Below, one piece after another: positions 4,465 to 64,000 of a stretch of 64,000 nucleotides of DNA. Location of the stretch: contig OZ024741.1 in the NCBI GenBank assembly GCA_964016885.1, positions 258,912,001-258,976,000 on the forward strand, read 5' to 3'. Below the pieces are notes generated by a model. The model searched no databases. It saw nothing but the letters and a program-made list of their open reading frames with translations, and was not told the DNA's origin. How positions within the stretch are numbered: position 1 is the stretch's first letter; every line of letters begins with the position of its first letter. A program made the translations under genes and the position numbers. This stretch comes from Eledone cirrhosa. Its lineage: Eukaryota.

Positions 4465-4479
4465 TTTTATATATATAGA

Positions 4480-4516
4480 CTAGCAGAAAACCACCCGGTG
4501 AGCGGTTTTCTGCTAG
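4480..4516. other. 37-bp palindrome/hairpin (13-bp perfect stem, 11-nt centre), present in all 17 A modules
   Basis: CTAGCAGAAAACC-ACCCGGTGAGC-GGTTTTCTGCTAG; the arms are exact reverse complements; followed by CAAAT-CTAG-T. Confidence 0.97.
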
Positions 4517-4692
4517 CAAATCTAGTGTATATACTGATATTGTTGAGATTTGGATGAGAAATGTTTTTGGCACCACATGTTCAAGCGTCTCTCGGTGTGT
4601 CTTTTATGCATGTATAAATATGTTATCTATACGGTGAAATCTTTGAAATAAATATATGTTAAAACGAAAAAGGAGAAAAAGAGATTAGTGAC

Positions 4693-4775
4693 GGAAATAT
4701 AAACGTTATGATATAACGATGGAAATATATAAACGTTTACGATAAAACGATGGAAATAGAAACGTTTATATATAA
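4693..4775. repeat. Three degenerate ~30-bp AT-rich tandem repeats at the right end of the A module
   Basis: GGAAATATAAACGTTATGATATAACGAT / GGAAATATATAAACGTTTACGATAAAACGAT / GGAAATAGAAACGTTTATATATAA. Confidence 0.85.
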
Positions 4776-6562
4776 TAATCCGAAAGACTCGTAAGCCGAA
4801 ACACTCGTAAGCCGAAACACTCATAAGTCGAAACACTCGTAAGTCGAAACACACGTAAGCCGAAACACTGAAACACTCGTAAGCCGAAACACTCGTTAGT
4901 CGAAACACTCGTAAGCCGAAACACTCGTAAGCCGAAACACTCGTAAGCCGAAATACTCGTAAGTCAAAACATTCGTAAGCCGAAACACTCGTAAGTGGAA
5001 ACACGCGTAAGCCGGAACACTCGTAAGTCGAAACACTCGTACGCCGAAACACTCGTAAGTCGGAGCACTCGTAAGTCGAAACACCGTAAGTCAAAACACT
5101 CGTAAGTCGAAACACTCGTAAGCCAAAAATACTCGTAAGTCGAAACACCCTTAAGTCAAAACACTCGTAAGTCGAAACTCTCGTAAGCCGAAACACCCGT
5201 AAGTCAAAACACCCGTAAGTCGAAACACTCGTAAGTCGAAACACTCGTACGCCGAAACACTCGTAAGTAAAAACATTAGTAAGTCGAAACACTCGTAAGC
5301 CGAAAGACTCGTAAGTCGAAACACTCGTAAGCCGAAGCACCCGTAAGTCAAAACATTCGTAAGTCAAAACACTCGTAAGTCGAAACACTCGTAAGTAGAA
5401 ACACTCGTAAGTCAAATCTCTCGTACGCCGAAACACTCGTAAGTAAAAACATTAGTAAGTCGAAACACTCGTAAGCCGAAACACTCGTAAGCCGAAACAC
5501 TCATAAGTCGAAACACTCGTAAGTCGAAACACACGTAAGCCGAAACACTGAAACACTCGTAAGCCGAAACACTCGTAAGTCGAAACACTCGTAAGCCGAA
5601 ACACTCGTAAGCCGAAACACTCGTAAGCCGAAATACTCGTAAGTCAAAACATTCGTAAGCCGAAACACTCGTAAGTGGAAACACGCGTAAGCCGGAACAC
5701 TCGTAAGTCGAAACACTCGTACGCCGAAACACTCGTAAGTCGGAACACCGTAAGTCAAAACACTCGTATGTCGAAACATCCGTAAATCAGAACACTCGTA
5801 AGTCAAAACACTCGTAAGTCGAAACACTCGTAAGCCAAAAATACTCGTAAGTCGAAACACCCTTAAGTCAAAACACTCTTAAGTCGAAACACTCGTAAGC
5901 CGAAACACGCGTAAGTCAAAACACCCGTAAGTCGAAACACTCGTAAGTCGAAACACTCGTAAGCCGAAACACCCGTAAGTCAAAACATTCGTAAGTCAAA
6001 ACACTCGTAAGTCGAAACACTCGTAAGTAGAAACACTCGTAAGTCAAATCTCTCGTACGCCGAAACACTCGTAAGTAAAAACATTAGTAAGTCGAAACAC
6101 TCGTAAGCCGAAACACTCATAAGTCGAAACACTCGTAAGCCGAAACACCCGTAAGTCAAAACATTCGTAAGTCAAAACACTCGTAAGACGAAACACCCGT
6201 AAGTCAAAACACTCGTAAGCCGAAACACTCGTAAGTCGAAACACTCATAAGCCGAAACACTCGTAAGTCGGAACACTCGTAAATCAGAACACCCGCAAGT
6301 CAGAACACTCGTAAATCAGAACACTCTTAAGTCGAAACTCACGTAAGCCGAAACACTCGTAAGTCGAAACACTCGTAAGTCGAAACATCCTTAAGTTGAA
6401 ACACTCGTACACCGAAACACTCGTAAGTATAAACATTAGTAAGTCGAAACACTCGTAAGTCGAAAGACCCGTAAGTCAAAACTCTCGTAAGTCAAAACAC
6501 TCGTAAGCCGAAACACTCGTAAGTCGAAACACTCGTAAGTCGAAACATTCGTAAAGCGAAAC

Positions 6563-6632
6563 GTATAAATAAAGATTAATGTAATGAACTTGAAAAGCAT
6601 AGATATTTGAAACCGCGTCTATTTGTTATTTT
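6563..6632. repeat. B module copy 2
   Basis: Same 70-bp sequence. Confidence 0.95.
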
Positions 6633-7563
6633 CGTAAGTCGAAACACTCGTAAGTCAGAACACTCGTAAGTCAGAACACTCTTAAGTCAGAACACTCGTA
6701 TCGAAACACTCGTATGTCAAAACACCCGTAAGTCAAAACATTCGTAAGTCGAAACACTCGTAAGTCGAAACACTCGTAAGCCGAAACAATCGTAAGTCAA
6801 AACACTCGTAAGTCGAAACACTCGTAAGCCGAAAATACTCGTAAGTCGGAACACCCGTAAGCCGAAACCCTCGTAATTCGAAACACTCGTAAGCCGAAAC
6901 ACCCGTAAGTCAGAACATTCGTAAGTCAAAACACTCGTAAGTCGAAACACTCGTAAGTCGAAACACTCGTAAGTCGAAATACTCGTAAGTCGAAACACCC
7001 GTAAGTCAAAACACTCGTAAGTCAGAATACTCGTAGGTCAGAACACTCGTAAGTCGAAACACTCGTAAGTCAGAACACTCGTAACACTCGTAAGTCGAAA
7101 CACTCGTATCGAAACACTCGTATGTCAAAACACCCGTAAGTCATAACACTCGTAAGTCGAAACACTCGTAAGCAGAAACACCGTATGTCAAAACACTCGT
7201 AAGTCAAAACACTCGAAAGTCGAAACACTCGTAAGTCGAAACACTCGTAAGTCGAAACACTCGTAAGCCGAAACACTCGTAAGTCGAAACACTCGTAAGT
7301 CGTAACACTCGTAAGTCGAAACACTCGTAAGTCGAAACACTCGTAAGTCGAAACACTCGTAAGCCGAAACACTCGTAAGACGAAACACTCGTAAGCCGAA
7401 ACACTCGTAAGTCGGAACACTCGTAAGTCAGAACGCTCGTAAGTCAGAACACTCGTAAGTCAGAACACTCGTAAGTCAGAACACTCGTAAGTCAGAACAC
7501 TCGTAAGTCAGAACACTCGTAAGTCGAAACACTCGTATCGAAACACTCGTAAGTCAAAACACC

Positions 7564-8303
7564 AGATCAAAAGGTTGAATTTTATGTGCATAACAAACAC
7601 TCCCTGAAACATAAGTAATACACATGTAAAGTTTGAAAAAAATCGGTTGGGTACTTCTCGCATTTTAGGGATTCAAACTCACAGACACACACACACACAG
7701 ACAGACATCCTCAGGGAAGTGACGTAATGCAGACAGCCAGACATACAGACAGATATTATAAGGGCACGACGTTATATGTATGTATCTATCTAAAAAGAGA
7801 AAGACTAAGAATTATAGAGAGAGATCGCTAAATCGCCTAATGTTGTCCCTAGGGCATTGAAAATTTGAAATATTTTTTGCTCAGAACACTCCCTGAAACA
7901 TAAGTATTACATGTGTAAAGTTCGAAAACAGTCGGTTGGGTGGTTCTCGAGTTTTAAGGATTGAAACTCACACACAGACAGACATCCTCAGTTTTATATA
8001 TATAGACTAGCAGAAAACCACCCGGTGAGCGGTTTTCTGCTAGCAAATCTAGTGTATATACTGATATTGTTGAGATTTGGATGAGAAATGTTTTTGGCAC
8101 CACATGTTCAAGCGTCTCTCGGTGTGTCTTTTATGCATGTATAAATATATATGTTATCTATACGGTGAAATCTTTGAAATAAATATATGTTAAAACGAAA
8201 AAGGAGAAAAAGAGATTAGTGACGGAAATATAAACGTTATGATATAACGATGGAAATATATAAACGTTTACGATAAAACGATGGAAATAGAAACGTTTAT
8301 ATA
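7564..8303. repeat. A module copy 2
   Basis: Near-identical to 4037-4775; AGA|CTAG junction at 8006/8007. Confidence 0.95.
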
Positions 8304-10810
8304 TAAGCCGAAAGACTCGTAAGCCGAAACACTCGTAAACCGAAACACTCATAAGTCGAAACACTCGTAAGTCGAAACACACGTAAGCCGAAACACTCGT
8401 AAGTGGAAACACGCGTAAGCCGAAATACTCGTAAGTCAAAACATTTGTAAGCCGAAACACTCGTAAGTGGAAACACGCGTAAGCCGGAACACTCGTAAGT
8501 CGAAACACTCGTACGCCGAAACACTCGTAAGTCGGAACACTCGTAAGTCGAAACACTCGTAAGTCAAAACACTCGTAAGTCGAAACACTCGTAAGTCGAA
8601 ACACACGTAAGCCGAAACACTGAAACACTCGTAAGCCGAAACACTCGTAAGTCGAAACACTCGCAAGTCGAAGTAAGTCAAAACATTCGTAAGTCAAAGC
8701 ACTCGTAAGTCGAAACACTCGTAAGTCGAAACAATCGTAAGTCAAAACACTCATACGCTGAAACACTCGTAAGTCGAAACACTCGTAAGTCGAAGCGCTC
8801 GTAAGTCGAAACACTCTTAAGTCGAAACACCCGTAAGTCGAAACACCCGTAAGTCAAAACACTCGTATGTCGAAACACTCGTAAGCCGAAACACCGTAAG
8901 TCAAAACACTCGTAAGTCGAAACACTCGTAAGTCGAAACACTCGTAAGCCGAAACACGCGTAAGCCAAAACATTCATAACTCGAAACACTCGTAAGCCGA
9001 AACACTCGTAAGTCGAAACACTCGTAAGCCGAAGCACTCGTAAGTCGAAACCCTCATAAGCCGAAACACTCGTAAGTCGGAACACTCGTAAGTCAGAACA
9101 CCCATAAGTCAGAACACTCGTAAGTCAGAACACTCGTAAGTCAGAACACTCGTAAGTCAGAACACTCGTATCGAAACACTCGTAAGTCAAAACACTCGTA
9201 AGTCGAAACACTCGTAAGCCGAAACACGGTAAGTCAAAACACTCGTAAGTCGAAACACTCGTAAGCCGAAACATTCGTAAGCCAAAACAATCGTAAGTCA
9301 AAACAATCGTAAGCCGAAACACTCGTAAGTCGGAACACCCGTAAGTCAGAACACTCGTAAGTCGAAACACTCGTAAGTCGAAACACTCGTAAGTCGAAAC
9401 ACGCGTAAGTCAGAACACTCGTAGGACAGAACATTCGGAAGTCCAAACACTCGTAAGTCAGAACACTCGTAACACTCGTAAGTCGAAACACTCGTATCGA
9501 AACACTCGTATGTCAAAACACCCGTAAGTCATAACACTCGTAAGCCGAAACACTCGTAAGCCGAAACACTCGTAAGCCGAAATACTCGTAAGTGGAAACA
9601 CGCGTAAGCCGGAACACTCGTAAGTCGAAACACTCGCAAGTCGAAACACTCGTAAGTCGAAACACTCGTAAGTAGGAACACTCGTATGTCAGATCACTCG
9701 TAAGTCGAAGTAAGTCGAAACACTCGTAAGTCAAAACACTCATACGCTGAAACACTCGTAAGTCGAAACACTCGTAAGTCGAAGCGCTCGTAAATCGAAA
9801 CACTCTTAAGTCGAAACACCCGTAAGTCGAAACACTCGTAAGTCAAAACACTCGTATGTCGAAACACTCGTAAGCCGAAACACCGTAAGTCAAAACACTC
9901 GTAAGTCGAAACACTCGTAAGTCGAAACACTCGTAAGTCGAAACACTCGTAAGCCGAAACACTCGTAAGTCGAAACACTCGTAAGCCGAAACACTCATAA
10001 GTCGAAACCGTCATAAGCCGAAACACTCGTAAGTCGGAACACTCGTAAGTCAGAACACCCGTAAGTCAGAACACTCGTAAGTCAGAATACTCGTAAGTCA
10101 GAACACTCGTATCGAAACACTCGTATGTCAAAACACCCGTAAGTCAAAACACTCGTAAGTCGAAACACTCGTAAGCCGAAACACCGTAAGTCAAAACACT
10201 CGTAAGTCGAATCACTCGTAAGCCGAAACATTCGTAAGCCAAAACAATCGTAAATCAAAACAATCGTAAGCCGAAACACTCGTAAGTCGGAACACCCGTA
10301 AGTCAGAACACTCGTAAGTCGAAACACTCGTAAGTCAGACCATTCGTAGTCGAAACACGCGTAAGTCAGAACACTCGTAGGTCAGAACATTCGTAAGTCG
10401 AAACACTCGTAAATCAGAACACTCGTAACACTCGTAAGTCGAAACACTCGTATCGAAACACTCGTAATTCAAAACACCCGTAAGTCATAACACTCGTAAG
10501 TCGAAACACTCGTAAGCAGAAACACCGTAAGTCAAAACACTCGTAAGTCAAAACACTCGTAAATCGAAACACTCGTAAGTCGAAACACTCGTAAGTCGGA
10601 ACACTCGTAAACCGAAACACTCGTAAGTCGGAACGCTCGTAAGTCGGAACACTCGTAAGTCAGAACACTCGTAAGTCGAAACACTCGTAAGCCGAAACAC
10701 CCGTAAGTCAAAACACTCTTAAGTCAAAACACTCGTAAGACGAAACACACGTAAGTCAAAACACTCGTAAGTCGAAACACTCGTACGCCGAAACACTCGT
10801 AAAGCGAAAC

Positions 10811-10880
10811 GTATAAATAAAGATTAATGTAATGAATTTGAAAAGCGTAGATATTTGAAACCGCCTCTATTTGTTATTTT
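10811..10880. repeat. B module copy 3
   Basis: Same 70-bp sequence. Confidence 0.95.
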
Positions 10881-11588
10881 CGTAAGTCGAAACACTCGTA
10901 AGCCGAAACACTCGTAAGTCGAAACACTCGTAAGTCGGAACATTCGTAAGTCGAAACACTCGTAAGTCGAAACACTCGTAAGTCGAAACACGCGTAAGCC
11001 GAAACACCCGTAAGTTAAAACACTCGTAAGTCGAAACACTCGTAAGTCGAAACACTCGTAAGTCGAAACACCCGTAAGTCAAAACACTCGTAAGTCAGAA
11101 CACTCGTAGTTCAGAACACTCGTAAGTCGAAACACTCGTAAGTCAGAACACTCGTAACACTCGTAAGTCGAAACACTCGTATCGAAACACTCGTATGTCA
11201 AAACACCCGTAAGTCATAACACTCGTAAGTCGAAACACTCGTAAGCAGAAACACCGTAAGTCAAATCACTCGTAAGTCAAAACACTCGAAAGTCGAAACA
11301 CTCGTAAGTCGAAACACTCGTAAGTCGAAACACTCGTAAGCCGAAACACCCGTAAGTCGAAACACTCGTAAGTCGTAACACTCGTAAGTCGAAACACTCG
11401 TAAGTCGAAACACTCGTAAGCCGAAACACTCGTAAGTCGGAACACTCGTAAGTCAGAACGCTCGTAAGTCAGAACACTCGTAAGTCAGAACACTCGTAAG
11501 TCAGAACACTCGTAAGTCAGAACACTCGTAAGTCAGAACACTCGTAAGTCGAAACACTCGTATCGAAACACTCGTAAGTCAAAACACC

Positions 11589-12325
11589 AGATCAAAAGGT
11601 TGAATTTTATGTGCATAACAAACACTCCCTGAAACATAAGTAATAAACATGTAAAGTTTGAAAAAAATCGGTTGGGTACTTCTCGCATTTTAGGGATTCA
11701 AACTCACAGACACACACACAGACAGACATCCTCAGGGAAGTGACGTAATGCAGACAGCCAGACATACAGACAGATATTATAAGGGCACGACGTTATATGT
11801 ATGTATCTATCTTAAAAGAGAAAGACTAAGAATTATAGAGAGAGATCGCTAAATCGCCTAATGTGGTCCCTAGGGCATTGAAAATTTGAAATATTTTTTG
11901 CTCAGAACACTCCCTGAAACATAAGTATTACATGTGTAAAGTTCGAAAACAGTCGGTTGGGTGGTTCTCGAGTTTTAAGGATTGAAACTCACACACAGAC
12001 AGACATCCTCAGTTTTATATATATAGACTAGCAGAAAACCACCCGGTGAGCGGTTTTCTGCTAGCAAATCTAGTGTATATACTGATATTGTTGAGATTTG
12101 GATGAGAAATGTTTTTGGCACCACATGTTCAAGCGTCTCTCGGTGTGTCTTTTATGCATGTATAAATATATGTTATCTATACGGTGAAATCTTTGAAATA
12201 AATATATGTTAAAACGAAAAAGGAGAAAAAGAGATTAGTGACGGAAATATAAACGTTATGATATAACGATGGAAATATATAAACGTTTACGATAAAACGA
12301 TGGAAATAGAAACGTTTATATATAA
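11589..12325. repeat. A module copy 3
   Basis: Near-identical copy; junction at 12027/12028. Confidence 0.95.
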
Positions 12326-14111
12326 TAAGCCGAAAGACTCGTAAGCTGAAACACTCGTAAGCCGAAACACTCATAAGTCGAAACACTCGTAAGTCGAAAC
12401 ACACGTAAGCCGAAACACTGAAACACTCGTAAGCCGAAACACTCGTAAGTCGAAACACTCGTAAGCCGAAACACTCGTAAGCCGAAACACTCGTAAGCCG
12501 AAATACTCGTAAGTCAAAACGCTCGTATGTCGAAACACTCGTAAACCGAAACACGCGTAAGCCGGAACACTCGTAAGTCGAAACACTCGTACGCCGAAAC
12601 ACTCGTAAGTCGGAGCACTCGTAAGTCGAAACACCGTAAGTCAAAACACTCGTAAGTCGAAACACTCGTAAGCCAAAAATACTCGTAAGTCGAAACACCC
12701 TTAAGTCAAAACACTCGTAAGTCGAAACTCTCGTAAGCCGAAACACCCGTAAGTCAAAACACCCGTAAGTCGAAACACTCGTAAGTCGAAACACTCGTAC
12801 GCCGAAACACTCGTAAGTAAAAACATTAGTAAGTCGAAACACTCGTAAGCCGAAAGACTCGTAAGTCGAAACACTCGTAAGCCGAAGCACCCGTAAGTCA
12901 AAACATTCGTAAGTCAAAACACTCGTAAGTCGAAACACTCGTAAGTAGAAACACTCGTAAGTCAAATCTCTCGTACGCCGAAACACTCGTAAGTAAAAAC
13001 ATTAGGAAGTCGAAACACTCGTAAGCCGAAACACTCGTAAGCCGAAACACTCATAAGTCGAAACACTCGTAAGTCGAAACACACGTAAGCCGAAACACTG
13101 AAACACTCGTAAGCCGAAACACTCGTAAGTCGAAACACTCGTAAGCCGAAACACTCGTAAGCCGAAACACTCGTAAGCCGAAATACTCGTAAGTCAAAAC
13201 ATTCGTAAGCCGAAACACTCGTAAGTGGAAACACGCGTAAGCCGGAACACTCGTAAGTCGAAACACTCGTACGCCGAAACACTCGTAAGTCGGAACACTC
13301 GTAAGTCGAAACACCGTAAGTCAAAACACTCGTATGTCGAAACATCCGTAAATCAGAACACTCGTAAGTCAAAACACTCGTAAGTCGAAACACTCGTAAG
13401 CCAAAAATACTCGTAAGTCGAAACACCCTTAAGTCAAAACACTCTTAAGTCGAAACACTCGTAAGCCGAAACACGCGTAAGTCAAAACACCCGTAAGTCG
13501 AAACACTCGTAAGTCAAATCTCTCGTACGCCGAAACACTCGTAAGTAAAAACATTAGTAAGTCGAAACACTCGTAAGCCGAAACACTCATAAGTCGAAAC
13601 ACTCGTAAGCCGAAACACCCGTAAGTCAAAACATTCGTAAGTCAAAACACTCGTAAGTCGAAACACCCGTAAGTCAAAACACTCGTATGTCGAAACACTC
13701 GTAAGCCGAAACAAGGTAAGTAATAACACTCGTAAGTCGAAACACCCATAAGTCGAAACACTCGTAAGCCGAAACACTCGTAAGTCGAAACACTCATAAG
13801 CCGAAACACTCGTAAGTCGGAACACTCGTAAATCAGAACACCCGCAAGTCAGAACACTCGTAAATCAGAACACTCTTAAGTCGAAACTCACGTAAGCCGA
13901 AACACTCGTAAGTCGAAACACTCGTAAGTCGAAACATCCTTAAGTTGAAACACTCGTACACCGAAACACTCGTAAGTATAAACATTAGTAAGTCGAAACA
14001 CTCGTAAGTCGAAAGACCCGTAAGTCAATACTCTCGTAAGTCAAAACACTCGTAAGCCGAAACACTCGTAAGTCGAAACACTCGTAAGTCGAAACATTCG
14101 TAAAGCGAAAC

Positions 14112-14181
14112 GTATAAATAAAGATTAATGTAATGAACTTGAAAAGCATAGATATTTGAAACCGCGTCTATTTGTTATTTT
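14112..14181. repeat. B module copy 4
   Basis: Same 70-bp sequence. Confidence 0.95.
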
Positions 14182-15367
14182 CGTAAGTCGAAACACTCGT
14201 AAGTCAGAACACTCGTAAGTCAGAACACTCTTAAGTCAGAACACTCGTATCGAAACACTCGTATGTCAAAACACCCGTAAGTCAAAACATTCGTAAGTCG
14301 AAACACTCGTAAGTCGAAACACTCGTAAGCCGAAACAATCGTAAGTCAAAACACTCGTAAGTCGAAACACTCGTAAGCCGAAAATACTCGTAAGTCGGAA
14401 CACCCGTAAGCCGAAACCCTCGTAATTCGAAACACTCGTAAGCCGAAACACCCGTAACTCAGAACATTCGTAAGTCAAAACACTCGTAAGTCGAAACACT
14501 CGTAAGTCGAAACACTCGTAAGTCGAAACACTCGTAAGTCGAAACACCCGTAAGTCAAAACACTCATAAGTCAGAACACTCGTAGGTCAGAACACTCGTA
14601 AGTCGAAACACTCGTAAGTCAGAACACTCGTAACACTCGTAAGTCGAAACACTCGTATCGAAACACTCGTATGTCAAAACACCCGTAAGTCATAACACTC
14701 GTAAGTCGAAACACTCGTAAGCAGAAACACTCGTAAGTCGAAACATTCGTAAGCCGAAACACTCGTAAGTCGAAACACTCGTAAATCGTAACACTCGTAA
14801 GTCGAAACACTCGTAAGTCGAAACACTCGTAAGTCGAAACACTCGTAAGCCGAAACACTCGTAAGCCGAAACACTCGTAAGTCGGAACACTCGTAAGTCA
14901 GAACGCTCGTAAGTCAGAACACTCGTAAGTCAGAACACTCGTAAGTCAGAACACTCGTAAGTCAGAACACTCGTAAGTCGAAACACTCGTATCGAAACAC
15001 TCGTATGTCAAAACACTCGTAAGTCAAAACACTCGAAAGTCGAAACACTCGTAAGTCGAAACACTCGTAAGTCGAAACATTCGTAAGCCGAAACACTCGT
15101 AAGTCGAAACACTCGTAAGTCGTAACACTCGTAAGTCGAAACACTCGTAAGTCGAAACACTCGTAAGTCGAAACACTCGTAAGCCGAAACACTCGTAAGC
15201 CGAAACACTCGTAAGTCGGAACACTCGTAAGTCAGAACGCTCGTAAGTCAGAACACTCGTAAGTCAGAACACTCGTAAGTCAGAACACTCGTAAGTCAGA
15301 ACACTCGTAAGTCAGAACACTCGTAAGTCGAAACACTCGTATCGAAACACTCGTAAGTCAAAACACC

Positions 15368-16108
15368 AGATCAAAAGGTTGAATTTTATGTGCATAACAA
15401 ACACTCCCTGAAACATAAGTAATACACATGTAAAGTTTGAAAAAAATCGGTTGGGTACTTCTCGCATTTTAGGGATTCAAACTCACAGACACACACACAC
15501 AGAGACAGACATCCTCAGGGAAGTGACGTAATGCAGACAGCCAGACATACAGACAGATATTATAAGGGCACGACGTTATATGTATGTATCTATCTAAAAA
15601 GAGAAAGACTAAGAATTATAGAGAGAGATCGCTAAATCGCCTAATGTTGTCCCTAGGGCATTGAAAATTTGAAATATTTTTTGCTCAGAACACTCCCTGA
15701 AACATAAGTATTACATGTGTAAAGTTCGAAAACAGTCGGTTGGGTGGTTCTCGAGTTTTAAGGATTGAAACTCACACACAGACAGACATCCTCAGTTTTA
15801 TATATATAGACTAGCAGAAAACCACCCGGTGAGCGGTTTTCTGCTAGCAAATCTAGTGTATATACTGATATTGTTGAGATTTGAATGAGAAATGTTTTTG
15901 GCACCACATGTTCAAGCGTCTCTCGGTGTGTCTTTTATGCATGTATAAATATATATGTTATCTATACGGTGAAATCTTTGAAATAAATATGTTAAAACGA
16001 AAAAGGAGAAAAAGAGATTAGTGACGGAAATATAAACGTTATGATATAACGATGGAAATATATAAACGTTTACGATAAAACGATGGAAATAGAAACGTTT
16101 ATATATAA
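15368..16108. repeat. A module copy 4
   Basis: Near-identical copy; junction at 15810/15811; shares diagnostic variants (AATACACATG, ATGTTGTCCC) with copy 2. Confidence 0.95.
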
Positions 16109-18567: not shown

Positions 18568-18637
18568 GTATAAATAAAGATTAATGTAATGAATTTGAAA
18601 AGCATAGATATTTGAAACCGCGTCTATTTGTTATTTT
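18568..18637. repeat. B module copy 5
   Basis: Same 70-bp sequence. Confidence 0.95.
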
Positions 18638-21751: not shown

Positions 21752-21821
21752 GTATAAATAAAGATTAATGTAATGAATTTGAAAAGCATAGATATTTGAA
21801 ACCGCGTCTATTTGTTATTTT
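21752..21821. repeat. B module copy 6
   Basis: Same 70-bp sequence. Confidence 0.95.
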
Positions 21822-24985: not shown

Positions 24986-25055
24986 GTATAAATAAAGATT
25001 AATGTAATGAATTTGAAAAGCATAGATATTTGAAACCGCGTCTATTTGTTATTTT
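24986..25055. repeat. B module copy 7
   Basis: Same 70-bp sequence. Confidence 0.95.
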
Positions 25056-48327: not shown

Positions 48328-48397
48328 GTATAAATAAAGATTAATGTAATGAATTTGAAAAGCATAGATATTTGAAACCGCGTCTATTTGTTATTTT
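48328..48397. repeat. B module copy 13
   Basis: Same 70-bp sequence. Confidence 0.95.
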
Positions 48398-52143: not shown

Positions 52144-52213
52144 GTATAAATAAAGTTTAATGTAATGAACTTGAAAAGCATAGATATTTGAAACCGCGTC
52201 TATTTGTTATTTT
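52144..52213. repeat. B module copy 14
   Basis: Same 70-bp sequence. Confidence 0.95.
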
Positions 52214-53534
52214 CGTAAGTCGAAACACTCGTAAGTCAGAACACTCGTAAGTCAGAACACTCTTAAGTCAGAACACTCGTATCGAAACACACGTATGTCA
52301 AAACACCCGTAAGTCAAAACACTCGTAAGTCGAAACACTCGTAAGTCGAAACACTCGTAAGCCGAAACAATCGTAAGTCAAAACACTCTTAAGTCGAAAC
52401 ACTCGTAAGCCGAAAATACTCGTAAGTCGGAACACCCGTAAGCCGAAACCCTCGTAGGTCGGAACACTCGTAAGTCGAAACACTCGTAAGTCGAAACACC
52501 CGTAAGTCGGAACACTCGTAAGTCAGAATACTCGTAAGTCGAAACACTCGTAAACCGGAACACCCGTAAGGCAAAACATTCGCAAGTCAAAACACTCGTA
52601 AGTCGAAACACTCGTAAGCCGAAACACTCGTAAGTCGAAACACTCGTAAGTCGAAACACTCGTAAGTCGAAAAACTCGTAAGTCAGTGCACCCGTAAGTC
52701 AGAACACTCGTAGTCAGAACACTCGTAAGTCGAAACACTCGTAAGTCGAAACACCCGTAAGTCGAAACATCCGTAAGTCAAAACACTCGTATGTCGAAAC
52801 ACTCGTAAGCCGAAACACTCGTAAGTCGGAACACTCGCAAGTCAGAACACTCGTAAGTCAGAACACTCGTAAGTCGAAACACTCGTAAGTCGAAACACTC
52901 GTAAGTCGAAACGCCCGTAAGTCAAAACACTCGTATGTCGAAACACTCGCAAGCCGAAAAACCGTAAGTCAAAACACTCGTAAGTCGAAACACTCGTAAG
53001 TCGAAACACTCGTAAGCCGAAACACTCGTAAGCGAAAACATTCGTAAGTCGAAACACTCGTAACCCGAAACACTCGTAAGTCGAAACACTCGAAAGCCGA
53101 AACACTCGTAAGTCGAAACACTCATAAGCCGAAACACTCGTAAGTCGGAACACTCGTAAGTCAGAACACCCGTAAGTCAGAACACTCGTAGTCAGAACAC
53201 TCGTAAGTCGAAACACTCGTAAGCCGAAACACTCGCAAGTCGAAGCACTCGTAATCCGAAACACTCTTAAGTCGAAACACTCGTAAGTCGGAACACTCGT
53301 AAGTCAGAACACTCGTAAGTCAGAACACTCGTAAGTCGAAACACTCGTAAGCCGAAACATCCGTAAGTCAAAACATCCGTAAGTCAAAACACTCGTAAGC
53401 CGAAACACTCGCAAGTCGAAGCACTCGTAATCCGAAACACATGTAAGTCAAAACACTCGTAAGTCAAAACACTCGTAAGCCGAAACACTCGTAAGTCGAA
53501 ACACTCGTAAGTCGAAACACTCGTAAAGCGAAAC

Positions 53535-53604
53535 GTATAAATAAAGATTAATGTAATGAATTTGAAAAGCATAGAGATTTGAAACCGCGTCTATTTGTTA
53601 TTTT
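53535..53604. repeat. B module copy 15
   Basis: Same 70-bp sequence (ATAGAGATTT subtype). Confidence 0.95.
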
Positions 53605-54891
53605 CGTAAGTCGAAACACTCGTAAGCCGAAACACTCGTGAGCCGAAACACTCGTAAGTCGGAACACTCGTAAGTCAGAACACTCGTAAGTCAGAACACT
53701 CGTAAGTTAGAACACTCGTAAGTCAGAACACTCGTAAGTCAGAACACTCGTAAGTCAGAACACTCGTAAGTCGAAACACTCGTATCGAAACACTCGTATG
53801 TCAAAACACCAGTAAGTCAAAACACTCGTAAGTCGAAACACTCGTAAGCCGAAACACTGTAAGTCAAAACACTCGTAAGTCGAAACACTCGTAAGTCGAA
53901 ACACTCGTAAGCCGAAACACTCGTAAGCCGAAACACTCGTAAGTCGGAACACTCGTAAGTCAGAACACTCATAAGTCAGAACACTCGTAAGTCAGAACAC
54001 TCGTAAGTCGAAACACTCGTAAGCCGAAACACCGTAAGTCGAAACACCCGTATGTCGAAACACTCGTAAGCCGAAACACTCGTAAGTCGAAACACCCGTA
54101 GTTGAAACACTCGTAAGTCGAAACACCCGTAAGTCGAAACACTCGTAAGTCGAAACACTCGTAAGCCGAAACACTCGTAAGTCGAAACACTCATATGCCG
54201 AAACACTCGTAAGTCGAAACACTCGTAAGTCAGAACACTCGTAGTCAGAACACTCGTAAGTCAAACCACTCGTAAGCCGAAACACTCGTAAGTCGAAACA
54301 CTCGTAAGTCAAAACACTCGTAAGTCGAAAAACTCGTAAGCCGGAACACTCGTAAGTCAGAACACTCGTAAGTCAGAACACTCGTAAGTCGAAACACTCG
54401 TAAGCCGAAACACCCGTAAGTCGAAACATTCGTAAGTCGAAACACCCGTAAGTCGAAACAGTCGTAAGTCGAAACAGCCGTAAGTCGAAACACTCGTAAG
54501 TCGAAACACTCGTAAGTCGAAACACCGTAAGTCAAAACACTCGTATGTCGAAACATCCGTAAATCAGAACACTCCTAAGTCAAAACACTCGAAAGTCGAA
54601 ACACTCGTAAGTCGAAACACTCGTAAGTCGAAACACTCGTAAGCCGAAACACTCGTAAATCGAAACACTCGTAAGTCGTAACACTCGTAAGTCGAAACAC
54701 TCGTAAGCCGAAACACTCGTAAGCCGAAACACTCGTAAGTCGGAACACTCGTAAGTCAGAACGCTCGTAAGTCAGAACACTCGTAAGTCAGAACACTCGT
54801 AAGTCAGAACACTCGTAAGTCAGAACACTCGTAAGTCAGAACACTCGTAAGTCGAAACACTCGTATCGAAACACTCGTAAGTCAAAACACC

Positions 54892-55629
54892 AGATCAAAA
54901 GGTTGAATTTTATGTGCATAACAAACACTCCCTGAAACAAATAATAAACATGTAAAGTTTGAAAAAAATCGGTTGGGTACTTCTCGCATTTTAGGGATTC
55001 AAACTCACAGACACACACACACACACAGACAGACATCCTCAGGGAAGTGACGTAATGCAGACAGCCAGACATACAGACAGATATTATAAGGGCACGACGT
55101 TATATGTATCTATCTAAAAAGAGAAAGACTAAGAATTATAGAGAGAGATCGCTAAATCGCCTAATGTGGTCCCTAGGGCATTGAAAATTTGAAATATTTT
55201 TTGCTCAGAACACTCCCTGAAACATAAGTATTACATGTGTAAAGTTCGAAAACAGTCGGTTGGGTGGTTCTCGAGTTTTAACGATTGAAACTCACACACA
55301 GACAGACATCCTCAGTTTTATATATATAGACTAGCAGAAAACCACCCGGTGAGCGGTTTTCTGCTAGCAAATCTAGTGTATATACTGATATTGTTGAGAT
55401 TTGGATGAGAAATGTTTTTGGCACCACATGTTCACCGTCTCTCGGTGTGTCTTTTATGCATGTATAAATATATATGTTATCTATACGGTGAAATCTTTGA
55501 AATAAATATATGTTAAAACGAAAAAGGAAAAAAAGAGATTAGTGACGGAAATATAAACGTTATGATATAACGATGGAAATATATAAACGTTTACGATAAA
55601 ACGAAGGAAATAGAAACGTTTATATATAA
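54892..55629. repeat. A module copy 15
   Basis: Matches copy 10 (offset 18114); junction at 55330/55331. Confidence 0.95.
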
Positions 55630-57862
55630 TAAGCCAAAAGACTCGTAAGCCGAAACACTCGTAAGCCAAAACACTCATAAGTCGAAACACTCGTAAGTCG
55701 AAACACACGTAAGCCGAAACACTGAAACACTCGTAAGCCGAAACACTCGTAAGTCGAAACACTCGTAAGCCGAAACACTCGTAAGCCGAAACACTCGTAA
55801 GCCGAAATACTCGTAAGTCAAAACATTCGTAAGCCGAAACACTCGTAAGTGGAAACACGCGTGAGCCGGAACACTCGTAAGTCGAAACACTCGTACGCTG
55901 AAACCCTCGTAAGTCGGAACACTCGTAACTCAGAACACTCGTCAGTCAGAACACTCGTAAGTCGAAACACCCGTAAGTCAAAACACTCGTAAGTCGAAAC
56001 ACTCGTATCGAAACACTCGTATGTCAAAACAACCGTAAGTCATAACACTCGTAAGTCGAAACACTCGTAACTCGAAACACTCGTAAGTCGAAACACTCGT
56101 AAGTCGAAACACCCGTAAGTCAAAACACCCGTAAGTCATAACACTCGTAAGTCGAAACACACTTAAGTCAAAACACCCGTAAGTCATAACACTCGTAAGT
56201 CGGAACACTCGTAAGTCGAAACACCGTAAGTCAAAACACTCGTATGTCTAAACATCCGTAAATCAGAACACTCGTAAGTCAAAACACTCGTAAGTCGAAA
56301 CACTCGTAAGCCAAAAATACTCGTAAGTCGAAACACCCTTAACTCAAAACACTCGTAAGTCGAAACACTCGTAAGCCGAAACACCCGTAAGTCAAAACAC
56401 CCGTAAGTCGAAACACTCGTAAGTCGAAACACTCGTACGCCGAAACACTCGTAAGTAAAAACATTAGTAAGTCGAAACACTCGTAAGCCGAAAGACTCGT
56501 AAGTCGAAACACTCGTAAGTCGAAACACCCGTAAGTCAAAACATTCGTAAGTCAAAACACTCGTAAGTCGAAACACTCGTAAGTAGAAACACTCGTAAGT
56601 CAAATCTCTCGTACGCCGAAACACTCGTAAGTAAAAACATTAGTAAGTCGAAACACTCGTAAGCCGAAACACTCATAAGTCGAAACACTCGTAAGCCGAG
56701 ACACCCGTAAGTCAAAACATTCGTAAGTAAAAACACTCGTAAGTCGAAACACCCATAAGTCGAGACACTCGTAAGCCGAAACACTCGTAAGTCGAAACAC
56801 TCATAAGCCGAAACACTCGTAAGTCGGAACACTCGTAAATCAGAACACCCGCAAGTCAGAACACTCGTAAATCAGAACACTCTTAAGTCGAAACTCACGT
56901 ACGCCGAAACACTCGTAAGTCGAAACACTCGTAAGTCGAAACATCCTTAAGTCGAAACACTCGTACACCGAAACACTCGTAAGTATAAACATTAGTAAGT
57001 CGAAACACTCGTAAGCCGAAACACTCGTAAGTCGAAACACCCATAGCCGAAACACTGGTAAGTCGGAACACACGTAAGTCAGAACACCCGTAAGTCAGAA
57101 CACTCGTAAGTCAGCACACTCGTAAGTCAGAACACTCGTAAGTCAGAGCACTCGTATCGAAACACTCGTATGTCAAAACACCCTTAAGTCAAAACACTCG
57201 TACGTCGAAACACTCGTAAGCCGAAACACCGTAAGCCAAAACACTCGTAAGTCGAAACACCCGTAAGTCGGAACACTCATAAGTCGAAACACTCGTAAGT
57301 CGAAACACTCGTAAGCCGAAACACTCGTAAGCCGAAACACTCGTAAGTCGGAACACTCGTAAGTCGGAACACTCGTAAGTCAGAACACTCGTAAGTCAGA
57401 ACACTCGTAAGTCAGAACACTCGTAAGTCAGAACACTCGTAAGTCGAAACACTCGTATCGAAACACTCGTATGTCAAAACACCCATAAGTCAAAACACTC
57501 GTAAGTCGAAACATTCGTATGTCGAAACATCCGTAAATATGAACACTCGTAAGTCGAAACACTCGTAAGTCGAAACACTCGTAAGCCGAAACACTCGTAA
57601 GTCGAAACACTCGTATCGAAACACTCGTAAGTCGAAACACACTTAAGTCAAAACACTCGTAAGCCAAAACACTCGTAAGTCGAAACACTCGTAAGTCGGA
57701 ACACTCGTAAGTCAGAACACTCGTAAGTCAGAACACTCGTAAGTGGAAACACGCGTAAGTCGAAAGACCCGTAAGTCAAAAATCTCGTAAGTCAAAACAC
57801 TCGTAAGCCGAAACACTCGTAAGTCGAAACACTCGTAAGTCGAAACATTCGTAAAGCGAAAC

Positions 57863-57932
57863 GTATAAATAAAGATTAATGTAATGAACTTGAAAAGCAT
57901 AGATATTTGAAACCGCGTCTATTTGTTATTTT
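57863..57932. repeat. B module copy 16
   Basis: Same 70-bp sequence. Confidence 0.95.
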
Positions 57933-60495
57933 CGTAAGTCGAAACACTCGTAAGTCAGAACACTCGTAAGTCAGAACACTCTTAAGTCAGAACACTCGTA
58001 TCGAAACACACGTATGTCAAAACACCCGTAAGTCAAAACACTCGTAAGTCGAAACACTCGTAAGTCGAAACACTCGTAAGCCGAAACAATCGTAAGTCAA
58101 AACACTCTTAAGTCGAAACACTCGTAAGCCGAAAATACTCGTAAGTCGGAACACCCGTAAGCCGAAACCCTCGTAGGTCGGAACACTCGTAAGTCGAAAC
58201 ACTCGTAAGTCGAAACACCCGTAAGTCGGAACACTCGTAAGTCAGAATACTCGTAAGTCGAAACACTCGTAAACCGGAACACCCGTAAGGCAAAACATTC
58301 GCAAGTCAAAACACTCGTAAGTCGAAACACTCGTAAGCCGAAACACTCGTAAGTCGAAACACTCGTAAGTCGAAACACTCGTAAGTCGAAAAACTCGTAA
58401 GTCAGTGCACCCGTAAGTCAGAACACTCGTAGTCAGAACACTCGTAAGTCGAAACACTCGTAAGTCGAAACACCCGTCAGTCGAAACATCCGTAAGTCAA
58501 AACACTCGTATGTCGAAACACTCGTAAGCCGAAACAGTCGTAAGTCGGAACACTCGCAAGTCAGAACACTCGTAAGTCAGAACACTCGTAAGTCGAAACA
58601 CTCGTAAGTCGAAACACCCGTAAATCGAAACGCCCGTAAGTCAAAACACTCGTATGTCGAAACACTCGCAATCCGAAAAACCGTAAGTCAAAACACTCGT
58701 AAGTCGAAACACTCGTAAGTCGAAACACTCGTAAGCCGAAACACTCGTAAGCGAAAACATTCGTAAGTCGAAACACTCGTAACCCGAAACACTCGTAAGT
58801 CGAAACACTCGAAAGCCGAAACACTCGTAAGTCGAAACACTCATAAGCCGAAACACTCGTAAGTCGGAACACTCGTAAATCAGAACACCCGTAAGTCAGA
58901 ACACTCGTAGTCAGAACACTCGTAAGTCGAAACACTCGTAAGCCGAAACACTCGCAAGTCGAAGCACTCGTAATCCGAAACACTCTTAAGTCGAAACACT
59001 CGTAAGTCGGAACACTCGTAAGTCAGAACACTCGTAAGTCAGAACACTCGTAAGTCGAAACACTCGTAAGCCGAAACATCCGTAAGTCAAAACATCCGTA
59101 AGTCAAAACACTCGTAAGCCGAAACACTCGCAAGTCGAAGCACTCGTAATCCGAAACACATGTAAGTCAAAACACTCGTAAGTCAAAACACTCGTAAGCC
59201 GAAACACTCGTAAGTCGAAACACTCGTAAGTCGAAACACTCGTAAGCCGAAACACTCGCGAGCCGAAACACTCGTAAGTCGGAACACTCGTAAGTCAGAA
59301 CACTCGTAAGTCAGAACACTCGTAAGTTAGAACACTCGTAAGTCAGAACACTCGTAAGTCAGGACACTCGTAAGTCAGAACACTCGTAAGTCGAAACACT
59401 CGTATCGAAACACTCGTATGTCAAAACACCAGTAAGTCAAAACATTCGTAAGTCGAAACACTCGTAAGCCGAAACACTGTAAGTCAAAACACTCGTAAGT
59501 CGAAACACTCGTAAGTCGAAACACTCGTAAGCCGAAACACTCGTAAGCCGAAACACTCGTAAGTCGGAACACTCGTAAGTCAGAACACTCATAAGTCAGA
59601 ACACTCGTAAGTCAGAACACTCGTAAGTCGAAACACTCGTAAGCCGAAACACCGTAAGTCGAAACACCCGTATGTCGAAACACTCGTAAGCCGAAACACT
59701 CGTAAGTCGAAACACCCGTAGTTGAAACACTCGTAAGTCGAAACACCCGTAAGTCGAAACACTCGTAAGTCGAAACACTCGTAAGCCGAAACACTCGTAA
59801 GTCGAAACACTCATATGCCGAAACACTCGTAAGTCGAAACACTCGTAAGTCAGAACACTCGTAGTCAGAACACTCGTAAGTCAAACCACTCGTAAGCCGA
59901 AACACTCGTAAGTCGAAACACTCGTAAGTCAAAACACTCGTAAGTCGATAAACTCGTAAGCCGGAACACTCGTAAGTCAGAACACTCGTAAGTCAGAACA
60001 CTCGTAAGTCGAAACACTCGTAAGCCGAAACACCCGTAAGTCGAAACATTCGTAAGTCGAAACACCCGTAAGTCGAAACAGTCGTAAGTCGAAACAGCCG
60101 TAAGTCGAAACACTCGTAAGTCGAAACACTCGTAAGTCGAAACACCGTAAGTCAAAACACTCGTATGTCGAAACATCCGTAAATCAGAACACTCCTAAGT
60201 CAAAACACTCGAAAGTCGAAACACTCGTAAGTCGAAACACTCGTAAGTCGAAACACTCGTAAGCCGAAACACTCGTAAATCGAAACACTCGTAAGTCGTA
60301 ACACTCGTAAGTCGAAACACTCGTAAGCCGAAACACTCGTAAGCCGAAACACTCGTAAGTCGGAACACTCGTAAGTCAGAACGCTCGTAAGTCAGAACAC
60401 TCGTAAGTCAGAACACTCGTAAGTCAGAACACTCGTAAGTCAGAACACTCGTAAGTCAGAACACTCGTATCGAAACACTCGTAAGTTAAAACACC

Positions 60496-61233
60496 AGATC
60501 AAAAGGTTGAATTTTATGTGCATAACAAACACTCCCTGAAACAAATAATAAACATGTAAAGTTTGAAAAAAATCGGTTGGGTACTTCTCGCATTTTAGGG
60601 ATTCACACTCACAGACACACACACACACACAGACAGACATCCTCAGGGAAGTGACGTAATGCAGACAGCCAGACATACAGACAGATATTATAAGGGCACG
60701 ACGTTATATGTATCTATCTAAAAAGAGAAAGACTAAGAATTATAGAGAGAGATCGCTAAATCGCCTAATGTGGTCCCTAGGGCATTGAAAATTTGAAATA
60801 TCTTTTGCTCAGAACACTCCCTGAAACATAAGTATTACATGTGTAAAGTTCGAAAACAGTCGGTTGGGTGGTTCTCGAGTTTTAACGATTGAAACTCACA
60901 CACAGACAGACATCCTCAGTTTTATATATATAGACTAGCAGAAAACCACCCGGTGAGCGGTTTTCTGCTAGCAAATCTAGTGTATATACTGATATTGTTG
61001 AGATTTGGATGAGAAATGTTTTTGGCACCACATGTTCACCGTCTCTCGGTGTGTCTTTTATGCATGTATAAATATATATGTTATCTATACGGTGAAATCT
61101 TTGAAATAAATATATGTTAAAACGAAAAAGGAAAAAAAGAGATTAGTAACGGAAATATAAACGTTATGATATAACGATGGAAATATATAAACGTTTACGA
61201 TAAAACGAAGGAAATAGAAACGTTTATATATAA
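60496..61233. repeat. A module copy 16
   Basis: Near-identical copy; junction at 60934/60935. Confidence 0.95.
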
Positions 61234-61730
61234 TAAGCCGAAAGACTCGTAAGCCGAAACACTCATAAGTCGAAACACTCGTAAGTCGAAACACACGTAA
61301 GCCGAAACACTGAAACACTCGTAAGCCGAAACACTCGTAAGTCGAAACGCTCGTAAGCCGAAACACTCGTAAGTCGAAACACTCGTATGTCGAAACATCC
61401 GTAAATCAGAACACTCGTAAGTCGAAACACTCGTAAGTCGAAACACTCGTAAGCCGAAACACTCGTAAGTCGAAACACTCGTATCGAAACACTCGTAAGT
61501 CGAAACACCCTTAAGTCAAAACACTCGTAAGCCAAAACACTCGTAAGTCGAAACACTCGTAAGTCGGAACACTCGTAACTCAGAACACTCGTAAGTCAGA
61601 ACACTCGTAAGTGGAAACACGCGTAAGTCGAAAGACCCGTAAGTCAAAAATCTCGTAAGTCAAAACACTCGTAAGCCGAAACACTCGTAAGTCGAAACAC
61701 TCGTAAGTCGAAACATTCGTAAAGCGAAAC

Positions 61731-61800
61731 GTATAAATAAAGATTAATGTAATGAACTTGAAAAGCATAGATATTTGAAACCGCGTCTATTTGTTATTTT
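61731..61800. repeat. B module copy 17
   Basis: Same 70-bp sequence. Confidence 0.95.
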
Positions 61801-62897
61801 CGTAAGTCGAAACACTCGTAAGTCAGAACACTCGTAAGTCAGAACACTCTTAAGTGAGAACACTCGTATCGAAACACTCGTATGTCAAAACACCCGTAAG
61901 TCAAAACACTCGTAAGTCGAAACACTCGTAAGTCGAAACACTCGTAAGCCGAAACAATCGTAAGTCAAAACACTCGTAAGTCGAAACAGTCGTAAGCCGA
62001 AAATACTCGTAAGTCGGAACACCCGTAAGCCGAAACCCTCGTAGGTCGGAACACTCGTAAGTCGAAACACTCGTAAGTCGAAACACCCGTAAGTCGAAAC
62101 ACTCGTAAGTCGAAACACCCGTAAGTCGAAACATCTGTAAGTCAAAACACTCGTATGTCGAAACACTCGTAAGCCGAGACACTCGTAAGTCGGAACACTC
62201 GCAAGTCAGAACACTCGTAAGTCAGAACACTCGTAAGTCGAAACACTCGTAAGTCGAAACACCCGTAAGTCGAAACGCCCGTAAGTCAAAACACTCGTAT
62301 GTCGAAACACTCGCAAACTGAAAAACCGTAAGTCAAAACACTCGTAAGTCGAAACACTCGTAAGCCGAAACACTCGTAAGCGAAAACATTCGTAAGTCGA
62401 AACACTCGTAACCCGAAACACTCGTAAGTCGAAACACTCGAAAGCCGAAACACTCGTAAGTCGAAACACTCATAAGCCGAAACACTCGTAAGTCGGAACA
62501 CTCGTAAGTCAGAACACCCGTAAGTCAGAACACTCGTAGTCAGAACACTCGTAATTCGAAACACTCGAAAGCCGAAGCACTCGTAATCCGAAACACTCTT
62601 AATTCGAAACACTCGTAAGTCGGAAGACTCGTAAGTCAGAACACTCGTAAGTCAGAACACTCGTAAGTCGAAACACTCGTAAGCCGAAACATCCGTAAGT
62701 CAAAACATCCGTAAGTCAAAACATTCGTAAGTCGAAACACCCGTAGTCGAAACACTCGCATGTCGAAACACTCGTAAGTCGAAACACGCGTAAGTCGAAA
62801 CACATGTAAGTCAAATCACTCGTAAGTCAAAACACTCGTAAGCCGAAACACTCGTAAGTCGAAACACTCGTAAGTCGAAACACTCGTAAAGCGAAAC

Positions 62898-62967
62898 GTA
62901 TAAATAAAGATTAATGTAATGAATTTGAAAAGCATAGAGATTTGAAACCGCGTCTATTTGTTATTTT
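62898..62967. repeat. B module copy 18
   Basis: Same 70-bp sequence (ATAGAGATTT subtype). Confidence 0.95.
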
Positions 62968-63442
62968 CGTAAGTCGAAACACTCGTAAGCCGAAACACTC
63001 GTGAGCCGAAACACTCGTAAGTCGGAACACTCGTAAGTCAGAACACTCGTAAGTCAAAACACTCGTAAGTTAGAACACTCGTAAGTCAGAACACGCGTAA
63101 GTCAGAACACTCGTAAGTCAGAACACTCGTAAGTCGAAACACTCGTATCGAAACACTCGTATGTCAAAACACCAGTAAGTCAAAACACTCGTAAGTCGAA
63201 ACACTCGTAAGCCGAAACACCGTAAGTCAAAACACTCGTAAGTCGAAACACTCGTAAGTCGAAACACTCGTAAGTCGAAACACTCGTAAGTCGAAACACT
63301 CGTAAGCCGAAACACTCGTAAGCCGAAACACTCGTAAGTCGGAACACTCGTAAGTCAGAACACTCATAAGTCAGAACACTCGTAAGTCAGAACACTCGTA
63401 AGTCGAAACACTCGTATCGAAACACTCGTAAGTCAAAACACC

Positions 63443-64000
63443 AGATCAAAAGGTTGAATTTTATGTGCATAACAAACACTCCCTGAAACATAAATAATAA
63501 ACATGTAAAGTTTGAAAAAAATCGGTTGGGTACTTCTCGCATTTTAGGGATTCAAACTCACAGACACACACACACACACACACAGACAGACATCCTCAGG
63601 GAAGTGACGTAATGCAGACAGCCAGACATACAGACAGATATTATAAGGGCACGACGTTATATGTATCTATCTAAAAAGAGAAAGACTAAGAATTATAGAG
63701 AGAGATCGCTAAATCGCCTAATGTGGTCCCTAGGGCATTGAAAATTTGAAATATTTTTTGCTCAGAACACTCCCTGAAACATAAGTATTACATGTGTAAA
63801 GTTCGAAAACAGTCGGTTGGGTGGTTCTCGAGTTTTAACGATTGAAACTCACACACAGACAGACATCCTCAGTTTTATATATATAGACTAGCAGAAAACC
63901 ACCCGGTGAGCGGTTTTCTGCTAGCAAATCTAGTGTATATACTGATATTGTTGAGATTTGGATGAGAAATGTTTTTGGCACCACATGTTCACCGTCTCTC
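63443..64000. repeat. A module copy 17 (truncated by window end)
   Basis: Near-identical copy; junction at 63887/63888. Confidence 0.95.

What the first reader, a model, noticed from the sequence alone, without database searches (positions are those of the whole stretch)
4465..63924. Composite satellite that looks like a head-to-tail concatemer of Helitron-like elements filled with a 16-bp repeat
Seen: all 17 A modules contain the same junction. On the minus strand it reads hairpin-TTTTCTG-CTAG immediately followed by TCTATATATATAAAACTGAGGATGTCTGTCTG, with no intervening base and no target-site duplication. Known: Helitrons begin 5'-TC and end CTRR-3' about 10-12 nt after a hairpin. Rolling-circle replication can give head-to-tail CTAG|TC junctions, and some non-autonomous Helitron-type elements (Drosophila DINE-1/DINE-TR1, bivalve HINE-type elements) carry central tandem repeats that seed satellites. 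Inference: the true repeat unit runs junction to junction, as element 5' arm + satellite + B + satellite + 3' arm. Unit lengths are 3527, 4021, 3783, 4054, 3234, 3236, 1919, 3373, 5590, 3996, 3236, 1919, 3373, 5590, 5604 and 2953 bp. This would be a transposon-to-satellite transition caught in progress, in a family I do not recognise.
Basis: partly seen in the sequence, partly recalled or inferred. Interest (0 to 1): 0.8.

Follow-up and report, generated by a model that had tools for sequence, protein, structure and literature searches.

The report
Helitron that targets other Helitrons' starts
The repeated junction joins two different rolling-circle transposons, one of which sits directly in front of another such element in 96% of its copies and likely targets that spot, while its tiny internal 16-base repeat likely grew by ordinary unequal recombination into a satellite domain about 7 Mb long.

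Summary
The 17 junctions and all 16 unit lengths are exact, and both halves are real Helitron ends. But they come from two families. The 3' arm, module B and the 16-mer belong to family X (about 1.0-1.55 kb, A|TC start, 1-6 repeat units). The 5' arm is the first 443 bp of family Y (0.4-1.0 kb, own 3' end).

The joint pre-exists in dispersed copies: 461 of 480 exact X ends are followed by TC, against 5 of 100 listed Y ends. What follows X is the start of many Helitron families, usually more diverged than X. X therefore likely inserts at the A|TC start of resident Helitrons.

The window lies in a roughly 7-Mb satellite domain made mostly of B plus 16-mer. Its first array begins with X's interior. 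The junction module is a minor passenger: higher-order repeat breakpoints lie in satellite, and all 36 modules sampled elsewhere had lost CTAG yet spread. Recombination, not rolling-circle concatemer formation, best explains the array.

The parts
1..63441 (-). 16-bp satellite (element strand TTACGAGTGTTTCGAC-type), about 79% of the window; the expanded central repeat of Helitron family X
   Evidence: 1-6 units in 29 of 30 dispersed X copies
4037..4479 (-). First 443 bp of non-autonomous Helitron family Y (starts TCTATATATATAAAACTGAGG at 4479, carries an internal second copy of its nt ~23-122), cut off at ...GATCT and joined to satellite at 4037/4036; first of 17 copies
4480..4775 (-). 3' arm (296 bp) of Helitron family X, ending ...GGTTTTCTGCTAG at 4480; first of 17 copies
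4480..4516 (-). Terminal palindrome of X: 16-bp stem, 5-nt loop, CTAG inside the stem at both ends
4479..4480 (-). X|Y junction CTAG|TC; the others lie at 8006, 12027, 15810, 19864, 23098, 26334, 28253, 31626, 37216, 41212, 44448, 46367, 49740, 55330, 60934, 63887
3081..3150 (-). Module B (about 70 bp), the segment directly upstream of the central repeat in X; first of 18 copies in the window
22710..58547 (.). Higher-order duplication, period 18,114 bp (22,710-40,433 repeated at 40,824-58,547); identity breaks down near 22,600-22,700 and 40,433, not at a CTAG|TC junction

Best explanation
The array is a satellite made of parts of Helitron family X (module B plus its 16-bp central repeat) that carries a junction between X and a second family, Y, which likely arose when X inserted at Y's start and was likely copied passively by unequal recombination. 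Steps: (1) shown: X is a dispersed non-autonomous Helitron whose 3' end nearly always abuts the 5' TC of another Helitron; (2) inferred: X integrates at the host-A|TC boundary of resident Helitrons, the bond that a RepHel transposase nicks to start replication; (3) shown as a series of present-day states, inferred as a history: the central repeat grows inside X (6 units in L118, about 14 at C2:80.556 Mb, 4 kb of B+16-mer at C2:240.96 Mb with X|Y still running on into the Y body); (4) inferred: one non-homologous break joined Y nt 443 to satellite, so the X3'|Y5' block became flanked by satellite on both sides; (5) inferred: unequal exchange within the 16-mer, higher-order duplication and block duplication spread B+16-mer over about 7 Mb and the junction block to roughly 90 copies.
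For: Two families. X 5' flank is A in 23 of 24 copies where the 5' end was found. 461 of 480 exact X ends are followed by TC, against 5 of the first 100 listed Y ends and 14% C after T in flanking DNA. 26 of 27 X ends in loci chosen by an internal query are followed by a Helitron-like start, of at least 8 kinds by eye, among them a decayed RepHel element. Y is more diverged than the adjoining X in 22 of 24 pairs. X-preceded Y copies are scattered over the Y tree (17 label changes; shuffled mean 17.8). The first array of the domain begins with X's internal segment, then B, then satellite. At least 187 kb right of the last A module has no A. All 86 exact array joints lie in C2:256.6-261.7 Mb. 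36 of 36 sampled modules elsewhere read CTAT|TC or CTAA|TC. Variants are more linked across the junction (Mantel r 0.45) than within the junction-to-junction unit (0.15).
Against: All 24 modules of this block keep an intact CTAG|TC, and A modules are densest here. The within-unit linkage is also above chance (p = 0.017). 19 of the 24 X|Y pairs were picked with X queries, which favours young X; in the 5 picked otherwise Y was more diverged in 4. The Y tree is poorly resolved (7 of 50 branches well supported), so scatter is weak evidence. No empty-site polymorphism was seen, so the order X-after-Y is not shown directly. Neither true end of this block is informative: the left end is cut inside the X arm, the right end was not reached. 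No autonomous partner with X termini among 20 RepHel loci read.
Confidence: 0.72

Rival explanations
1. One reading: the junction-to-junction unit is one chimeric Helitron (Y 5' arm, satellite, B, X 3' arm), and the array is its rolling-circle concatemer.
For: Perfect CTAG|TC in all 24 modules of this block. The chimera has an intact 5' and 3' end. Head-to-tail junctions and tandem arrays are cited as signs of rolling-circle replication (PMC5876387, passages).
Against: No dispersed copy; no A|TC start in 60 modules; units of 1.9-5.6 kb with 0-2 B modules; the junction pre-exists in hundreds of dispersed heterologous pairs; a CTAT variant spread through the other blocks; higher-order breakpoints are not at the junction.
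Confidence: 0.06
2. Hybrid: the junction arose as in the best explanation, but because CTAG|TC is the structure of a Helitron circle junction, a RepHel protein used it as an origin on chromosomal or circular satellite DNA and boosted local amplification of this block.
For: This block keeps CTAG and holds 24 modules in 89 kb. The genome holds an intact 1,718-aa RepHel frame whose start shares about 12-14 nt with Y's. Helraiser needs the left end and only loosely the right (PMC4778049, passages).
Against: Dense clusters also exist where the junction reads CTAT (257.36-257.43 and 260.49-260.51 Mb). About 1.2 Mb of the same block, as sampled, amplified with no junction at all.
Confidence: 0.14
3. 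Reverse order or co-transposition: other Helitrons inserted behind X's CTAG (at G|T), or X moves only as a composite that reads through its paired end into the next element.
For: Both orders give the same final structure, as noted for one maize pair (PMC2267711, passages). X's CTAG is buried in a stem, which could make it a poor terminator or a nick site. The palindrome serves as an end on either strand.
Against: Solo X is rare (19 of 480) while 65 of the first 100 listed Y starts follow A. G|T is not among Helraiser's common non-AT targets (46 of 1,751, mostly TT, AC, AA). X and Y distances are uncorrelated (rho 0.016). Family V has the same palindromic end and ordinary flanks. This rival changes the origin of the joint, not the recombination model for the array.
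Confidence: 0.08

Closest known systems
Canonical non-autonomous Helitrons (Helitron1/HLE1; Helibat/Helraiser type)
   Same: 5' TC, 3' CTAG, insertion after host A, no target-site duplication, no coding capacity; Y has a short GC hairpin 8 nt before CTAG and inserts between A and T (definition from PMC4778049, passages).
   Different: X's 3' palindrome is 16-17 bp and includes the CTAG, and X's downstream flank is another Helitron's start in 96% of copies rather than generic AT-rich DNA.
Helitron-type elements with central tandem repeats that seed satellites (Drosophila DINE-1/DINE-TR1, oyster Cg_HINE)
   Same: A short central repeat behind a microsatellite-like left module grows into stand-alone arrays, later spread by unequal crossover (PMC7492417 and PMC10048060, passages; DINE-TR1 seen only as a citation).
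   Different: Those are Helentron-type (subterminal inverted repeats, TT target); X has TC/CTAG ends and A|T targets. Here the array reaches megabases, includes the adjoining B segment and carries a two-family end junction.
Head-to-tail Helitron pairs and tandem arrays (bat, maize, D. pseudoobscura Y)
   Same: Exact CTAG|TC joints. One heterologous maize pair was read as consecutive insertions, possibly at the A|T of the resident's start (PMC2267711, passages). Maize Helitrons are said to insert near other Helitrons (PMC12477314, passage citing a paper not held).
   Different: Those reports are same-element tandems or single cases. Here base-exact heterologous joints are the rule for a whole family (461 of 480) and involve many partner families.

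Membership tests
Non-autonomous canonical Helitron (family X) | 5' TC terminus after host A | tested here: met
   23 of 24 copies with a located 5' end follow A; the other follows another X's CTAG
Non-autonomous canonical Helitron (family X) | 3' CTRR terminus followed by T, no target-site duplication | tested here: met
   Homology ends at CTAG; 461 of 480 followed by TC; no duplication seen in the printed flanks
Non-autonomous canonical Helitron (family X) | Short hairpin ending about 10-12 nt before the 3' end | tested here: inconclusive
   An inner short stem lies about 7 nt before CTAG, but the predicted stem extends through CTAG
Non-autonomous canonical Helitron (family X) | Autonomous RepHel partner with the same termini | tested here: inconclusive
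   None among 20 loci read of 150 scored and 3,704 candidates
Non-autonomous canonical Helitron (family Y) | A|TC start, hairpin plus CTAG|T end, related RepHel element | tested here: met
   a decayed PF14214+PF05970 element shares 79% over the first 145 nt and has a similar end
Helentron/HINE/DINE-1 | Subterminal inverted repeats with TT insertion site | tested here: not met
   X and Y have TC...CTAG ends and follow A; the two ends of X are not inverted repeats of each other in the printed sequence
Rolling-circle concatemer of one Helitron | Both sides of the junction are ends of the same mobile element, which also occurs as solo copies | tested here: not met
Rolling-circle concatemer of one Helitron | Array or duplication boundaries at element termini | tested here: not met
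   Domain starts in X's interior; 18,114-bp duplication does not break at the junction; the block's right end was not reached
Rolling-circle concatemer of one Helitron | Extrachromosomal circles closed at CTAG|TC | not testable with these tools
   Needs eccDNA sequencing; genomic tandem joints would confound inverse PCR
Transposon-derived satellite DNA | Monomer is an internal repeat of a dispersed element and forms long stand-alone arrays with higher-order repeats | tested here: met
Centromeric satellite | Binds CENP-A / lies at the primary constriction | not testable with these tools
   Only size (about 7 Mb, with inversions) is known

The most novel reading that the evidence does not exclude
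Family X and its relatives with the same 5' end are origin-homing Helitrons: their transposase integrates them almost only at the nick site (host A|TC) of resident Helitrons of many families, a safe-haven strategy of parasitising other transposons. This builds exact CTAG|TC joints without rolling-circle concatemers, and one such joint was caught in a multi-megabase, possibly centromeric, satellite grown from X's 3-unit internal repeat.
Probability: 0.6. Interest if true: 0.8.

Novelty: new variant of a known kind. Interest (0 to 1): 0.62.

Why it matters
CTAG|TC junctions are widely cited as genomic evidence of rolling-circle concatemers; here hundreds arise between unrelated families, so the junction alone does not prove that mechanism. 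A Helitron family with near-exclusive, base-exact targeting makes Helitron target choice, which is poorly understood, directly testable, with family V (same 3' palindrome, ordinary targets) as a natural control. The genome also preserves intermediates from a 3-unit internal repeat to a roughly 7-Mb satellite.

Tried and rejected
Autonomous partner of X: none among 20 long-frame RepHel loci; 130 scored and thousands of unscored candidates were not read. Coding remnants: tblastn of the intact RepHel found nothing in the window, X or Y. Alternative reading with a plus-strand 3' end (hairpin, CAAAT, CTAG): rejected, since dispersed homology runs through it and breaks at 4479/4480. The 3' palindrome as the cause of targeting: not sufficient, since V copies have it with ordinary flanks; most V rows came from a search excluding TC, but in 7 rows whose true flank was unconstrained 1 began TC and none looked like a Helitron start. 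The block's ends: left cut at 258,910,539 by an element with a 505-aa frame that has no Pfam hit; right end lies beyond 260.18 Mb and was not found. Sequencing runs: no RNA holder listed; two RAD-seq runs had no read over the array-specific joint, which proves nothing for reduced-representation data. The long-match step crashed and was redone. Earlier findings of this scan: none. Seven paper searches showed no report of family-wide targeting of Helitron 5' ends; subscription papers, Repbase and Dfam could not be searched, two key papers were not held, and no supplements were read.
Full report
Observation. The window is about 79% 16-mer with 17 A and 18 B modules. It lies at G000:C2:258,912,001-258,976,000 of a 3.0-Gb assembly. 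The host taxon was not established by any search. The 3' end folds into a 16-bp stem that includes the terminal CTAG, unlike the canonical hairpin 11 nt upstream of the end described for Helraiser (PMC4778049, passages).

Two families. Searching each half of A separately gave dispersed loci on several contigs. There the 3' arm is preceded by B and a few 16-mers (1-6 units in 29 of 30 loci; one had an insertion), an internal Helitron-like start, and about 1 kb more up to a start TCT(C/A)CTTATAAT that follows A in 23 of 24 copies. I call this family X. The 5' arm continues in dispersed copies into a different body ending CCCGTGCAACGCCGGGTACCACTGCTAG|T, 0.4-1.0 kb from its start: family Y, with 2,126 exact starts. 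Neither encodes RepHel. A decayed element with PF14214 and PF05970 hits has a start 79% like Y's over 145 nt. An intact 1,718-aa RepHel exists elsewhere, but none of the 20 loci read has X termini.

The junction pre-exists. Of 480 exact 44-nt X ends, 461 are followed by TC. Among the first 100 of 2,202 listed Y ends only 5 are (pattern allowed A, C, T), and C follows T in 14% of flanking DNA. In 30 loci picked by an internal X query, 27 had a 3' end in reach and 26 were followed by a TA-rich start with a GTCT-type microsatellite. By eye these are at least 8 different starts, including Y, other X subfamilies (stacks such as X|X|other) and the decayed RepHel element; I confirmed 3' ends only for Y, X and that element. 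Conversely 35 of the first 100 listed Y starts follow G, and all 15 such loci fetched follow a Helitron-type 3' end. Raw reads of another sample break at 4479 into diverse flanks, and a contig of organism C bridges the X|Y joint.

Order of insertion. In 24 dispersed X|Y pairs the Y part deviates more from its column majority than the X part in 22 (means 5.7% and 2.7%), distances of the two parts are uncorrelated, and X-preceded Y copies are as diverse as A-preceded ones (0.895 and 0.895) and unclustered on a weakly resolved tree of 53 rows. Nineteen pairs were chosen with X queries, a bias in favour; among the other 5, 4 agree, with or without CpG columns. Insertion of X at a resident's A|TC obeys the AT rule; the reverse needs G|T. 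Helraiser cleaves exactly between flank and TC in vitro, which offers a chemistry for homing; that step is inference. Family V has the same palindromic end, another 5' end and ordinary flanks, so the palindrome is not sufficient. The targeting subfamilies I saw share X's 5' end, a correlation on few copies.

The array. A modules occupy only 258.911-258.999 Mb (24 copies); the next 187 kb read continuously is B+16-mer without A, and ten samples out to 260.18 Mb are the same. Sixteen of 20 4-kb samples between 256.3 and 261.35 Mb are at least 93% satellite. The first array, at 254,735,084, starts with X's internal segment, then B, then 16-mer. At C2:240.96 Mb, 4 kb of B+16-mer ends in X3'|Y5' and runs on into the Y body, the state expected before the break. 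The only joint special to the array is Y nt 443 to satellite, with no evident microhomology; its 86 exact copies all lie in C2:256.6-261.7 Mb. I fetched 36 of the 64 outside this block: each has the X arm directly before Y, 34 read CTAT|TC and 2 CTAA|TC. CTAG survives in this block (24 of 24), at 240.96 Mb and in two modules near 261.65 Mb. Variants are linked more across the junction than within the proposed unit (Mantel 0.45 and 0.15, both above chance). An 18,114-bp duplication breaks near 22,650 and 40,433, away from the junction. A second array of about 97 kb on C1 showed B but no A in the 27 kb of it that I read.

Mechanism. Shown: anatomy, two families, junction statistics, distribution, loss of CTAG in spread copies. 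Inferred: X homing to resident starts, growth of the central repeat in place, one break in Y, and spread by unequal exchange (0.72). Rivals: transposase-assisted local amplification from the junction (0.14), reverse order or composite movement (0.08), concatemer of one element (0.06).

Known and new. Satellites from Helitron-type central repeats are known (PMC7492417, PMC10048060, passages). Head-to-tail joints are known and usually read as rolling-circle products (PMC5876387; bioRxiv 2021.06.02.446622; PMC12001565; passages). One heterologous maize pair was read as consecutive insertions (PMC2267711, passages); single self-insertions are noted in Fusarium (PMC5148889, passages); insertion near other Helitrons is cited for maize (PMC12477314, passage). 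Passages of PMC4224331, PMC13286980, PMC3789558 and PMC13282606 added nothing on targeting. Seven searches showed no family-wide, base-exact targeting, within a library that lacks most subscription papers.

Verdict. The satellite is a well-documented new member of a known kind; the 5'-end homing of family X is a new variant and the part worth following. Interest 0.62.

Noticed in passing
L172, L177, L179, L181, L217; L143, L149, L154, L184: The terminal palindrome serves as a 3' end on either strand: some X-5'-bearing elements end in an inverted Helitron start plus the palindrome, others carry the loop inverted, and they too are followed by TC starts.
   Followed up: partly
G000:C2:254,735,084-261,668,609: About 7-Mb satellite domain with an inverted block of more than 1.2 Mb; two blocks end in the same flank (257.429 and 261.669 Mb), pointing to block duplication. 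Centromere candidate, untested.
   Followed up: partly
G000:C1:279,296,658-279,393,306: Second B+16-mer array of about 97 kb, bordered on both sides by other satellites.
   Followed up: partly
L069:6919-8433 (minus strand): 505-aa open frame just beyond the block's left end; looks by eye like a Penelope-type reverse transcriptase with GIY-YIG nuclease (recalled label), but no Pfam hit at E 0.001.
   Followed up: partly
L291:1303-8002: Intact autonomous Helitron, 6.7 kb, 1,718-aa RepHel with N-terminal STPR repeats, A|TC and CTAG|T ends.
   Followed up: partly
G000:C20:3.5-5.2 Mb and C27:13.0-15.5 Mb: Near-identical RepHel matches recur about every 100-150 kb on one strand, suggesting very large tandem duplications.
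   Followed up: no
G000:C1:143.30-143.77 Mb: Nine Y starts and nine palindromic ends spaced about 58 kb apart: a large tandem segmental duplication.
   Followed up: no
L319-L335, L338, L345, L346: A sub-lineage of A modules at 260.48-261.46 Mb carries an 81-bp internal duplication in the Y arm (nt 142-222).
   Followed up: no
window:4790-4870 laid on runs X5, X6: The 16-mer is held at high depth in contigs of organisms B and C, so the satellite is likely shared with related species.
   Followed up: no
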